Assembly: GCF_000026545.1 (NCBI RefSeq)
Contig: NC_011601.1
Source of the DNA: Escherichia coli O127:H6 str. E2348/69
Lineage (GTDB): Bacteria > Pseudomonadota > Gammaproteobacteria > Enterobacterales > Enterobacteriaceae
Strand: one strand, 5' to 3'
Length of the DNA stretch: 64,000 nucleotides
Position numbers: made by a program. Within the stretch, counting starts at the first letter, position 1, and each line of letters starts with the position of its first letter. This document shows, one piece after another, positions 12,001 through 15,000 of the stretch.

Positions 12001-15000
12001 TTGAACAAAATATCTCGGCACTGGCACTGGCCGCGCAGGTGATCCCTGGGCATATCATTCATATCACCTCTACGGTGCTGAATATCTTTGCCGTACTGAC
12101 TGCATTCTTTGGCATTTATCTCGGTTTCCACGAGGCCATTAAAGGCATTATTCTCAATCTGTTAAGCCGAATTATTGATACCAGGAAAATTAACTCACGC
12201 ATGCTGACTCTGGCGATCTGCGCTTTTATCGTCATTACGTTGACGATTTGGGTTTCGTTTCGTGTATCGGTGCTGGTGTTCTTTCAGTTGGGAAGCCCGT
12301 TATATGGCATTGTGTCGTGCCTCATTCCATTTTTCCTGATCTCTAAAGTTTCACAACTGAAAAAACTACGCGGGCTAAAAACATGGCTTATCCTGTTTTA
12401 TGGTATTTTGCTGTGCTTTTCGCCGCTATTGAAGCTGATTGAATAAAAGTAACGGGGGCTGCTCACAGCAGCCCCAGACGATGTCGATAGCATTGCAGCA
12501 CAGCCTGGATATGATCCTGAGTCATAAAGGACTGCTCATACGTTTCCATAACAATGGCATTTTCTTTACGTATATCCTGAAAGAGTTTTTCCAGCAATCT
12601 GGGCGCTAACCCCATTGATTCACCCAACAGCAAAAAGTCCTGCCCGATATACTCGCCATAATCACTGTGAAATCCAGGAGCCAGTTCCCGACCGCCTTCT
12701 TCTCGCGTCAATAACGGCAGCGCCAGATAGTTTGAGTAAAAATATTCCGGATAGGGAGCGACAGAAACAAAGTCATACACCGGCGCTAACGCAGGCGTCA
12801 AACCATCGGAGTACACTAAGCCAAAGTTTCGTAAATGCATGTCGTTATTACCCAGCAACCAGGCGTAAACAATGCGACGAAAGAGATCGATTTTAAATGC
12901 GATGTTGTCGTTAACATGGGCAACTAAAAATCGGGCCAGCGTTTCATAGCTGACATATTGTTCGTTATCATTCCCCGTTTTGCCATATTTATCTGTAATC
13001 TGCATCGCGCCATCAAGCTGTTCCTGATGCACTGGCAGCCCCTTGTTATCCCGGTCATAGCGCCGGATAACAAATGCGTATTCAAGCTCTTCCTCTGATT
13101 GTGGTGCAAAACTCAACAGGCCATGCACAGGTACGTCAAATCCCAAACGAGACATCAATGTCATTGTTGCGTGTTCATTTTCGGCCAAACCGGGAAAGTC
13201 GGCTGGAGAGGGCTTAAGGATAAAATTTCCCTGATGATCTACGACGCGGAACTCTCCTTCATCCAGCACTAATTGCAATTTGGGCTGGTAACCGGAAATA
13301 CTCATCCCTTTTTGTTGACGCGGAAGTTCCTGCACAAACTGAGTTCGCGTAAACCCCAGCCGAGGATTCAATTTTGCAGTGCCGCTCAGTCGCTTCAACC
13401 CCTGTGTCGAATATCCGCGCTGTTCGTCACGTTCATTCAACGGCGTTAACAGAATACGACAATTCGCCATTATTCCTCCCAAGGTAAAATCTGGATGGCC
13501 CCCAGCAGATTCTTGCCGTTATCAATAAGCATTCCCAGCAGATCGTTTTCGTCACGATGCTGTATCTGGCTGTAGCGTTGACGCAGCCATCCTTCTGGCG
13601 CCAGTGAGGCGAAATAAGGATGCAACGTCTCACTGGGAAACTGACGCTGTGCGACGGGCAGACTGATTGAGATTGCCGGTCCGTGGTAATCGTGGGCGTA
13701 CTGGAACAAAAAACCACTGTCGTTCTGAGAGAGTTCACCCACTACCTGACCATAGAGCAACACTTTCACTCGCCGATGCATAGTTTCACTCCAAGAACAT
13801 TCGCCACCGCGAACACACTGCCGAATTTAACCTGTTCAGGATCCTTAAAAAGTCGCTTTAACGTGGACGTTGAGATCCCCGTTTGTAGTTCAAGTGTGTA
13901 TAAATCAATGCCCAATTCTTTGCGACGTGCGTTCAGTTGTTCCCCCAAATGACGGGGAGTCTCAATGGTCAGGAGGGGGCGTGGTTGACTAATATTCGGC
14001 CCCTGAATAAGTTTCTTCTGCAACTCCTGGAGTTGGTCGCCGATCGCTTTCAACTCTTGAGCCAGATTTTGTGGTCCTGAGCAGATCATTAAAGAACCTT
14101 TCGATTGATAAAAGACAAAAACAAGATCATTTATGGTCAGATAAATTCGTTAAGTATCACAAATGAACCATTTTTCATTAATGGTTATAATTTAGCTCAT
14201 ATATAACTCATTGGCAAAGAAAAAGGTCAAAAAAGATACATAAATGATAGATAAAGCATAAAAAGGTCATATTTGACATGAGATCAGCATGAAAGCTGAT
14301 CTCATCGGGAGAGTTAAACAGCTGGCTTCTGCGGATTTTCATCCTGATCAACGGCAAAACAAGCTACCAGTTGACCGCCGTAGTCTTTTAGCTGCGGCTG
14401 CAACTGGGTGCAGGGGCCGAAGCGTCGACGACAGCGGGCGTTGAAGGCGCAGCCTGGCGGTGGATTCAGCGGGCTTGGCAGTTCACCGGTAAGTTTGATG
14501 CGTTCGCGACGATCGTCCGGGTTCAGGCGTGGTGTCGCGGAGAGCAGCGCCTGAGTGTACGGGTGGCGCGGGTTATTGAAGATTTGGTCCTTCGTCCCCT
14601 TCTCCACGCAGCGGCCCAGGTACATCACCATCACTTCATCAGCAATGTGCTCCACCACCGACAGATCGTGGGAGATAAAGACATAAGATAGCCCCAGTTC
14701 CTGCTGCAAATCCATCATCAGATTCAGCACCTGCGCACGCACTGAGACGTCCAGCGCGGAAACCGGCTCATCGGCAATCACCACATCCGGGTCGAGCATC
14801 AGACCTCGGGCAATGGCGATACGCTGACGCTGACCGCCGGAGAACATATGCGGATAGCGGTCATAATGCTCGGTTTTCAGGCCGACTTTCGCCATCATCG
14901 ACAGAGCTTTTTCCCGACGCTGTACTTTGCTTAAGCTGGTGTTGATCAGCAGCGGCTCTTCGAGAATCTGCCCAACTTTTTTACGCGGATTCAGCGAACC

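What the first reader, a model, noticed from the sequence alone, without database searches (positions are those of the whole stretch)
12463..14089. Tripartite split-HipA toxin-antitoxin operon (hipB–hipS–hipT) between yhjV and dppF
Three co-directional, overlapping genes encode (i) an XRE-type HTH protein, (ii) a 103-aa protein resembling only the N-terminal subdomain of HipA, and (iii) a 335-aa HipA-like kinase core that lacks that subdomain. So the classical two-gene hipBA layout is split into three genes. The kinase has the Gly-rich loop, the DxHxxN catalytic loop (Asp210) and the YDF metal-binding motif (Asp233). From memory, this matches the HipBST system reported for enteropathogenic E. 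coli O127:H6, where HipT phosphorylates tryptophanyl-tRNA synthetase and HipS, not HipB, is the antitoxin; I cannot confirm identity here. The module is absent from the K-12 gene order at this position as I recall it.
Basis: partly seen in the sequence, partly recalled or inferred. Interest (0 to 1): 0.95.

Follow-up and report, generated by a model that had tools for sequence, protein, structure and literature searches.

The report
Known HipBST toxin-antitoxin operon of EPEC

Summary
Three overlapping minus-strand genes, hipB 13766-14089, hipS 13470-13781 and hipT 12463-13470, lie between yhjV and dppF.

The DNA is 100% identical to E. coli E2348/69 (EPEC O127:H6). HipB and HipS are identical to chains A and B of PDB 7AB3. 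HipT differs from the printed 7AB3 and 7AB4 C chains only by the engineered S57A or S59A change.

All named residues are present: HipT Ser57, Ser59, Asp210-x-His-x-x-Asn215 and Tyr-Asp233-Phe, and HipS Trp65. HipS aligns to K-12 HipA residues 11-108 and HipT to HipA 172-338, so the "split HipA" reading holds.

Published experiments on this exact sequence show four things:
- HipT is a growth-arresting kinase that phosphorylates TrpS at Ser197.
- HipS, not HipB, neutralises it by inserting Trp65 beside the Gly-rich loop.
- HipB represses the promoter.
- The complex is a heterohexamer.

- The module sits in a 1,881-bp insert (12448-14328) that replaces a 34-bp spacer.
- The insert rewrites the DppF C-terminus.
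- The module occurs in 160 of 5,426 complete E. coli genomes, always as one chromosomal copy. All 160 also matched with adjoining yhjV or dppF flank.

Verdict: already known, low interest.

The parts
13766..14089 (-). hipB: 107-aa XRE/HTH transcriptional repressor, first gene of the operon
   Evidence: The ORF and its translation are. It is identical to PDB 7AB3 chain A. It matches Pfam HTH_3 at residues 54-103, E=2.2e-5. RefSeq annotates WP_000563102.1. A lacZ fusion showed that HipB is required and sufficient to repress the hipBST promoter (PMC10627512).
13470..13781 (-). hipS: 103-aa antitoxin, homologous to N-subdomain 1 of HipA; contains Glu63 and Trp65
   Evidence: Searches give the ORF and residues. 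It is identical to 7AB3 chain B. It scores 63.7 bits against TIGR03071 couple_hipA, whose cut-off is 27.8. It aligns to K-12 HipA 11-108. The antitoxin function and the role of Trp65 come from PMC6581861 and PMC10627512.
12463..13470 (-). hipT: 335-aa Ser/Thr kinase toxin (HipA core kinase lacking N-subdomain 1); Ser57 and Ser59 autophosphorylation sites, catalytic Asp210, and Asp233 in the Y-D-F motif
   Evidence: Searches give the ORF and residues. It is identical to the 7AB3 and 7AB4 C chains except for engineered S57A or S59A. It matches Pfam HipA_C at E=3.8e-38 and aligns to K-12 HipA 172-338. Toxicity, TrpS Ser197 phosphorylation and (p)ppGpp induction come from PMC6581861.
14090..14313 (-). 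AT-rich (29% GC) control region between the dppF stop codon and the hipB start codon; holds the hipBST promoter and presumably the HipB operator(s), neither mapped at base level
   Evidence: GC content is and the sequence. One sigma-70-like site is found at 14217-14189, but the count of such sites is no higher than in shuffles. The region holds palindromes AACCATT-n7-AATGGTT (14166-14186) and ATTTAT-n6-ATAAAT (14129-14146), and two copies of TGACCTTTTT 40 nt apart. A reporter fusion of the native promoter region was active and was repressed by HipB. The assignment of specific operator sequences is inference only.
14278..14305 (-). Perfect 11-bp stem hairpin just downstream of the dppF stop codon and inside the inserted segment; probable dpp terminator or insulator, with no U-tract directly after the stem
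   Evidence: Inverted repeat I3 is reported. As RNA it folds at -20.8 kcal/mol with z=-5.8. The terminator consensus scan did not call it.
12455..12475 (-). Terminator-like GC-rich hairpin at the 3' end of hipT; the hipT stop codon lies in its loop, and it sits between the convergent yhjV and hipT genes
   Evidence: The terminator scan reports 9 pairs, 7 of them G-C, with tail CGTTACTTTT. The fold has z=-3.4.
12448..14328 (.). The whole 1,881-bp strain-variable insert that carries hipBST. It replaces the 34-bp spacer of empty-site strains and includes new 3'-terminal codons of dppF.
   Evidence: The window was aligned to the empty site of strain SW070912. K-12 has a 29-bp yhjV-dppF spacer. No target-site duplication or terminal inverted repeat was found.

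Best explanation
The region is the hipBST operon of enteropathogenic E. coli O127:H6 E2348/69, a tripartite type II toxin-antitoxin module.

HipT is a HipA-family Ser/Thr kinase. When free, it phosphorylates tryptophanyl-tRNA synthetase TrpS at Ser197. This blocks tRNA-Trp charging, halts translation, raises (p)ppGpp and causes reversible growth arrest.

HipS corresponds to the detached N-subdomain 1 of HipA. It binds HipT and inserts Trp65 into a pocket formed by the outward-facing Gly-rich loop, which holds the kinase in an ATP-incompatible state.

HipB is an HTH dimer. It bridges two HipS-HipT pairs into a heterohexamer and represses the operon promoter. It augments neutralisation but does not neutralise HipT on its own. 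Autophosphorylation of HipT at Ser57 or Ser59 further tunes toxicity and HipS binding.

Shown here: the identity of the sequence, the architecture, the motifs and the genomic context. Shown in the literature on this same sequence: the biochemistry, the structure and the autoregulation. Still inferred or unknown: the natural trigger, the physiological role and the operator sequence.
For: The DNA is 100% identical to E2348/69 over 2,101 bp, with matching RefSeq annotation. HipB and HipS are identical to chains A and B of PDB 7AB3, and HipT equals the printed 7AB3 and 7AB4 C chains apart from the engineered Ser-to-Ala changes. Gene sizes (107, 103 and 335 aa) and overlaps (16 nt and 1 nt) are exactly those reported for hipBST-O127. 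Ser57, Ser59, Asp210, His212, Asn215 and Asp233 of HipT, and Glu63 and Trp65 of HipS, are all present. HipT matches Pfam HipA_C at 3.8e-38, HipS exceeds the TIGR03071 cut-off, and HipB matches HTH_3. The split relative to K-12 HipA is shown. The experimental literature supplies the rest. PMC6581861 covers toxicity, rescue by HipS, the ternary complex, trpS multicopy suppression, TrpS S197 phosphorylation, S57/S59 autophosphorylation and (p)ppGpp. PMC10627512 covers the heterohexamer, the Trp65 mechanism, catalytic Asp210, the inactive D233Q variant and repression by HipB. PMC8262856 places HipT in clade III. The same HTH-hipS-hipT order with identical 16-nt and 1-nt overlaps occurs on an Aliivibrio fischeri plasmid, where HipT is 47% identical.
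Against: Nothing contradicts the identification. Some caveats apply. NCBIfam has no dedicated HipT model, and the only hit (the YjjJ equivalog) is far below its cut-off. HipB-O127 shows no BLASTP similarity to K-12 HipB and falls below the couple_hipB cut-off, so calling it 'HipB' rests on position, the HTH fold and published function rather than on close homology. All toxicity data come from ectopic expression in K-12. No phenotype of the native chromosomal locus was found in the papers read here.
Confidence: 0.98

Rival explanations
1. A decayed canonical hipBA locus, in which an ordinary hipA gene was broken in two by a recent frameshift or nonsense mutation, so that 'hipS' and 'hipT' are pseudogene fragments.
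For: HipS and HipT together are colinear with HipA. The hipS-hipT junction is a 1-nt overlap, TAATG, which could on its face look like a point disruption.
Against: HipS and HipT are only 27% and 25% identical to K-12 HipA, which is not a recent break. The same split, with the same 16-nt and 1-nt overlaps, is conserved on an Aliivibrio plasmid at 47% HipT identity. It is also reported across 48 HipT orthologues that form their own clade. HipT has an extra N-terminal mini-domain that HipA lacks. Both proteins are expressed, fold, crystallise and function.
Confidence: 0.01
2. The molecular mechanism is the same, but the physiological role is anti-phage abortive infection rather than persistence or stress tolerance. 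Phage infection would free HipT and shut down translation.
For: The module is a patchily distributed accessory insert, present in 160 of 5,426 genomes. HipT gives weak hits to a PADLOC candidate-system family, PDC-M03A, at E=1.6e-6 over about 60 residues. From general knowledge of the field, several kinase and toxin-antitoxin modules act in phage defence.
Against: The PADLOC hits cover only the catalytic-loop region and amount to generic kinase similarity. HipS and HipB have no PADLOC hit. No neighbouring defence genes or prophage context are present; the flanks are the core genes yhjV and dppF. None of the hipBST papers found from 2023 to 2026 reports phage defence for the E. coli system.
Confidence: 0.12
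3. A selfish addiction module with no benefit to the host, retained at this site only because losing it is penalised or neutral.
For: It is present in only about 3% of complete E. coli genomes, always as one copy at one site, and at 95% identity or more. This is consistent with a single acquisition that was then inherited. The literature describes toxin-antitoxin systems as horizontally exchanged parasitic elements (abstract of PMC10653801).
Against: The reading frames and all catalytic residues are intact. In 151 of the 160 carriers the module is at least 99% identical, so there is no sign of decay. The locus has no mobile-element scars.
Confidence: 0.25

Closest known systems
HipBST of E. 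coli O127:H6 E2348/69 (Vang Nielsen et al. 2019, mBio, PMC6581861; Baerentsen et al. 2023, eLife, PMC10627512; PDB 7AB3, 7AB4, 7AB5)
   Same: Everything matches. The DNA is 100% identical. The three proteins are identical apart from the mutations engineered for crystallisation. Gene lengths and overlaps are the same.
   Different: Nothing differs; this is the type locus itself.
Canonical HipBA of E. coli K-12 (HipA phosphorylates GltX; HipB is the antitoxin)
   Same: It has the same kinase fold and motifs (HipA_C domain, Gly-rich loop, DxHxxN, and D233 in the Mg-binding motif), an HTH first gene, and the same logic of inhibiting an aminoacyl-tRNA synthetase to trigger the stringent response.
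   Different: Here the kinase is split into HipS and HipT. The target is TrpS Ser197, not GltX Ser239, and tRNA is not required in vitro. The antitoxin is HipS, not HipB. HipB-O127 ends in ...LCIGE, without the C-terminal Trp, and shows no BLASTP similarity to K-12 HipB. The quaternary structure differs.
HipBST of Legionella pneumophila (Lpg2368-2370; PDB 7VKB, 7WCF, 8EZR)
   Same: It has the same tripartite architecture and the same HipS-as-antitoxin principle. HipT-Lp is detected at E=5e-26 and HipS-Lp at E=4e-11.
   Different: It is a distant relative whose alignment covers only HipT residues 14-258. The published abstracts describe HipT-Lp (Lpg2370) as a Legionella effector and report functional diversification.
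HipBST of Haemophilus influenzae Rd (HI_0666 is HipS; PDB 7CZO)
   Same: HipS is homologous at E=2.9e-28. HipT-Hi is toxic, is neutralised by its own HipS, and is suppressed by TrpS.
   Different: It is an orthologue in another species, not the same sequence.

Membership tests
HipBST tripartite TA system (HipT kinases, Hip clade III) | A three-gene, co-directional operon in the order HTH gene, hipS, hipT, with overlapping or tightly coupled reading frames | tested here: met
   The genes are hipB 13766-14089, hipS 13470-13781 and hipT 12463-13470, all on the minus strand, with overlaps of 16 nt and 1 nt. The paper reports the same figures.
HipBST tripartite TA system (HipT kinases, Hip clade III) | HipT is a HipA-like core kinase that lacks the roughly 100-aa N-subdomain 1 | tested here: met
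   Pfam HipA_C matches residues 56-300 at E=3.8e-38. HipT 60-239 aligns to K-12 HipA 172-338, and nothing in HipT aligns to HipA 1-110.
HipBST tripartite TA system (HipT kinases, Hip clade III) | HipS is a roughly 100-aa protein homologous to HipA N-subdomain 1 | tested here: met
   TIGR03071 couple_hipA scores 63.7 bits against a cut-off of 27.8. HipS aligns to HipA 11-108 at E=6e-9.
HipBST tripartite TA system (HipT kinases, Hip clade III) | The first gene encodes an HTH (XRE-type) DNA-binding protein | tested here: met
   Pfam HTH_3 matches at E=2.2e-5 and HTH_26 at E=2.7e-4, over residues 53-103. PDB names the identical chain 'Predicted transcriptional regulator, XRE family'.
HipBST tripartite TA system (HipT kinases, Hip clade III) | Conserved kinase motifs: a Gly-rich loop with the S-psi-S dual phosphoserine motif, the catalytic DxHxxN motif and the Mg-binding D in YDF | tested here: met
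   Present are S57-I-S59, D210-M-H-L-R-N215 and Y-D233-F.
HipBST tripartite TA system (HipT kinases, Hip clade III) | HipS carries the Trp (Trp65) that is inserted next to the Gly-rich loop | tested here: met
   HipS residues 60-68 read LAPEGWLRQ, with E63 and W65.
HipBST tripartite TA system (HipT kinases, Hip clade III) | Sequence identity to the experimentally characterised type member | tested here: met
   HipB and HipS are identical to PDB 7AB3 chains A and B, and HipT equals the printed 7AB3 and 7AB4 C chains apart from the engineered S57A or S59A. The DNA is 100% identical to E2348/69.
HipBST tripartite TA system (HipT kinases, Hip clade III) | HipT is growth-inhibitory, is neutralised by HipS but not by HipB alone, and phosphorylates TrpS at Ser197 | not testable with these tools
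   This is experimental. It has been published for this exact sequence in PMC6581861.
HipBST tripartite TA system (HipT kinases, Hip clade III) | HipB represses the operon promoter | not testable with these tools
   A lacZ fusion result is published in PMC10627512. Only candidate promoter and palindrome sequences were located here.
Canonical two-gene HipBA | A single HipA polypeptide of about 440 aa with N-subdomain 1 fused to the kinase core | tested here: not met
   The domain is encoded by the separate hipS gene, which has its own start and stop codons.
Canonical two-gene HipBA | HipB is the antitoxin and has a C-terminal Trp that docks into HipA | tested here: not met
   HipB-O127 ends in ...KLCIGE with no C-terminal Trp. 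It shows no BLASTP similarity to K-12 HipB. The literature reports that HipB alone does not rescue growth.
Catalogued anti-phage defence systems (PADLOC-DB v2) | Full-length matches of the component proteins to models of a defined defence system | tested here: not met
   HipT gives only short, weak hits to candidate family PDC-M03A (residues 174-234, E=1.6e-6). HipS and HipB give none.

The most novel reading that the evidence does not exclude
The molecular system is fully known, so the only room for novelty lies in how the native locus is wired into the chromosome. The 1.88-kb insert places hipBST directly downstream of, and co-oriented with, the dppABCDF operon. The insert rewrites the last codons of dppF. 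It also replaces the ancestral yhjV/dppF spacer with a strong hairpin (14278-14305) that has no U-tract directly after the stem. If that hairpin terminates poorly, dpp transcription, which responds to peptide and nutrient status, could read through into hipBST. That would couple toxin-antitoxin stoichiometry to nutrient state. Separately, the unmapped HipB operator may be among the palindromes and TGACC repeats at 14129-14269.
Probability: 0.1. Interest if true: 0.3.

Novelty: already known. Interest (0 to 1): 0.08.

Why it matters
HipBST matters because a kinase toxin's own N-terminal subdomain has become a separate antitoxin. It also matters because HipA-family kinases have diversified to hit different aminoacyl-tRNA synthetases. 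All of this was published for exactly this strain and sequence in 2019 (genetics and biochemistry), 2021 (phylogeny) and 2023 (crystal structures). The finding therefore has value only as a correct annotation of the window. RefSeq still labels the three genes generically as 'HipA family toxin', 'HipA N-terminal domain-containing protein' and 'helix-turn-helix domain-containing protein', so naming them hipT, hipS and hipB is an annotation improvement. The small additions here may help anyone studying the native regulation or population distribution of the module. They are the insert boundaries, the altered DppF C-terminus, the 3% prevalence at a single chromosomal site, and the candidate operator and terminator elements.

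Tried and rejected
(1) NCBIfam on HipT gave only a sub-threshold hit to the YjjJ equivalog, 23.9 bits against a cut-off of 401. Pfam was needed to establish the HipA_C domain.

(2) BLASTP of HipB-O127 against K-12 HipB found no alignment. The TIGR03070 couple_hipB hit was below its cut-off. HipB membership therefore rests on the HTH domain, on gene position and on published function.

(3) I searched for mobile-element signatures at the insert ends. Only an 8-nt direct repeat, AAGCTGAT, turned up, which is compatible with chance, and there were no terminal inverted repeats. The mechanism of acquisition is left open; homologous recombination of divergent flanks is plausible, because the last 106 nt of yhjV are only 82% identical to the empty-site allele.

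(4) The promoter and terminator consensus scan found 3 promoter-like sites against 3.0 expected from shuffles. The candidate promoter at 14217-14189 therefore has no statistical support.

(5) For palindromes in the control region, the count (9 entries, reducing to about 5 distinct palindromes, against a mean of 1.2 in shuffles) is driven largely by the 11-bp hairpin. A 7-bp arm occurs in 25% of shuffles. No operator is claimed.

(6) Comparison with the control region of the Aliivibrio plasmid hipBST revealed no obviously shared motif by eye.

(7) PADLOC gave no membership in a defence system.

(8) Rfam found nothing inside the module; its hits were only the neighbouring IS200 RNA and two rdlD copies.

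Crystal structures of the proteins already exist, identical to the window proteins apart from single engineered substitutions in HipT.

(10) The large collection scans were deliberately not spent on a finding that is already explained.
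Full report
**Observation.** The ORF list and the raw sequence show three co-directional genes on the minus strand between yhjV (plus strand, ending at 12446) and dppF (minus strand, 14314-15327). Direct translation gives hipB at 13766-14089 (107 aa), hipS at 13470-13781 (103 aa) and hipT at 12463-13470 (335 aa from the ATG). 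hipB and hipS overlap by 16 nt. hipS and hipT overlap by 1 nt (TAATG). The mechanical ORF for hipT extends to a TTG at 13482, but RefSeq and the literature use the ATG.

**Identity.** A 2,101-bp query spanning the module and its flanks is 100% identical to the chromosome of E. coli E2348/69, the EPEC O127:H6 prototype. RefSeq annotates the genes there generically, as a HipA family toxin, a HipA N-terminal domain protein and an HTH protein. Searches against PDB sequences show the following:
- HipB equals chain A of 7AB3 over all 107 residues.
- HipS equals chain B of 7AB3 over all 103 residues.
- HipT equals chain C of 7AB3 except S57A, and chain C of 7AB4 except S59A.
- The 7AB5 chain C scores almost the same, but its alignment was not printed. 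The paper describes a D233Q structure.

**Family tests run here.**
- HipT matches Pfam HipA_C at 3.8e-38.
- HipS exceeds the curated cut-off of TIGR03071 couple_hipA.
- HipB matches HTH_3 at 2.2e-5.
- Against K-12 HipA (fetched), HipS aligns to residues 11-108 (27% identity, E=6e-9).
- HipT 60-239 aligns to HipA 172-338 (25% identity, E=1e-7).

This confirms that the two genes together are colinear with one HipA.

HipB-O127 has no detectable BLASTP similarity to K-12 HipB and ends in ...LCIGE, without the C-terminal Trp of canonical HipB.

**Mechanism, from papers on this same sequence.** Vang Nielsen et al. 2019 (PMC6581861) chose hipBST of E2348/69 as their model and reported the same gene sizes and overlaps. 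Their results:
- Induced HipT arrests growth reversibly.
- HipS alone rescues growth. HipB alone does not, although it augments the rescue.
- The three proteins co-purify.
- Multicopy trpS, but not gltX, suppresses toxicity.
- HipT phosphorylates TrpS at Ser197 in vitro without needing tRNA.
- HipT autophosphorylates at Ser57 or Ser59.
- HipT raises (p)ppGpp.

Baerentsen et al. 2023 (PMC10627512) solved the heterohexameric structure. Their results:
- HipS Trp65 wedges into a cavity formed by the outward Gly-rich loop.
- Asp210 is the catalytic residue, and D233Q is an inactive variant.
- HipT has an extra N-terminal mini-domain (residues 1-41).
- With a lacZ fusion to the native promoter, HipB is necessary and sufficient for repression.

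Gerdes et al. 2021 (PMC8262856) place HipT kinases in their own clade III. A search for newer hipBST literature found no paper that changes this picture for the E. coli system.

I aligned the window to an empty site in strain SW070912. Homology stops at 12447, one base after the yhjV stop codon, and resumes at 14329, inside dppF. So 1,881 bp (46% GC) replace 34 bp.

Because the right boundary lies inside dppF, the DppF C-terminus changes from ...DENPQR* (334 aa) to ...DENPQKPAV* (337 aa). The last 106 nt of yhjV are only 82% identical to the empty-site allele, whereas the rest of the gene is 97-100% identical. This suggests the module arrived by recombination together with divergent flanking sequence. 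No target-site duplication or terminal inverted repeats were found.

The module alone matches 160 of 5,426 complete E. coli genomes. Each has one copy, all are chromosomal, 151 are at least 99% identical and 9 are 95-99% identical. The flanked query likewise found 160 genomes at 80% coverage or more. Because 80% of that query is longer than the module, every such match includes at least some adjoining yhjV or dppF flank, which argues for the same site. I did not compare the two lists of 160 accession by accession. Carriers include SE15 and an O25b:H4-ST131 strain.

No close HipT homologue is plasmid-borne in PLSDB. The best hit is 47% identical, on Aliivibrio fischeri plasmid pCG103-32. That plasmid has the same HTH-hipS-hipT order with identical 16-nt and 1-nt overlaps, and its HipB HTH region is 49% identical.

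**Control elements (inference only).** The 224-bp region between dppF and hipB is 29% GC. It contains:
- A perfect 11-bp-stem hairpin just after the dppF stop codon (14278-14305; -20.8 kcal/mol, z=-5.8). It has no U-tract directly after the stem, and the terminator scan did not call it.
- One sigma-70-like site at 14217-14189. The number of such sites is no higher than in shuffles.
- Several short palindromes and TGACC repeats.

The hipT stop codon lies in the loop of a terminator-like hairpin at 12455-12475. The operator has not been mapped in the papers I read.

**Rivals.**
- A recently broken hipA pseudogene is excluded by the low identity to HipA, by the conserved split architecture and by the demonstrated function of the separate proteins.
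- A phage-defence role is not excluded but has no support. PADLOC gives only weak, catalytic-loop-level hits.
- A purely selfish module is compatible with the patchy distribution.

The last two concern physiological role. They do not change what the locus is or how its proteins work.

**Verdict.** The system is already known: this is the type locus of the HipBST family. Interest is low.

Noticed in passing
window 12448-14328 and dppF 14314-15327: The hipBST insert's right boundary lies inside dppF. As a result DppF ends in ...DENPQKPAV* (337 aa), whereas empty-site strains have ...DENPQR* (334 aa). The last 106 nt of yhjV (about 12341-12446) are only 82% identical to the empty-site allele, while the rest of the gene is 97-100% identical.
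   Followed up: partly
window 14278-14305 (minus strand): A strong, perfect 11-bp hairpin lies immediately after the dppF stop codon and inside the inserted DNA. It has no U-tract directly after the stem. The dpp operon and hipBST are co-oriented, so read-through from dpp into hipBST is conceivable.
   Followed up: partly
window 14129-14269: Candidate HipB operator elements sit in the 29%-GC control region. They are AACCATT-n7-AATGGTT (14166-14186), ATTTAT-n6-ATAAAT (14129-14146), and TGACC three times on the coding strand, including two copies of TGACCTTTTT 40 nt apart. The operator is not mapped in the papers read.
   Followed up: partly
window 9427-10018 (minus strand): An IS200C copy sits between bcsG and the ldr genes. 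Its tnpA gene is at 9427-9885, and its 5' structured RNA matches Rfam STnc490 at 9895-10018. K-12 has no IS at this position.
   Followed up: partly
window 10109-10813: There are two tandem Ldr/Rdl type I toxin-antitoxin units. The Ldr ORFs are at 10109-10216 and 10592-10699 on the minus strand. The rdlD antisense RNAs are at 10265-10330 and 10748-10813 on the plus strand. K-12 MG1655 has a single ldrD/rdlD unit here. Within about 4 kb, this region therefore carries two type I units and one tripartite type II TA module.
   Followed up: partly
window about 23031-28518 (minus strand): A long polar fimbriae operon (lpfA through lpfE) lies between yhjX and eptB, according to the E2348/69 annotation. 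It is another accessory insertion in this window. Its absence from K-12 was not checked here.
   Followed up: no
window about 32125-34276 and 30296-30998: In the E2348/69 RefSeq record, bisC and yhjY are annotated as frameshifted pseudogenes.
   Followed up: no
L006 1176-3893 (Aliivibrio fischeri plasmid pCG103-32): A plasmid-borne hipBST-like operon has the same 16-nt and 1-nt gene overlaps. It is followed directly by a second gene of the same length (1,038 nt) encoding a HipA-domain protein, which may be a tandem hipT duplicate without its own hipS.
   Followed up: no
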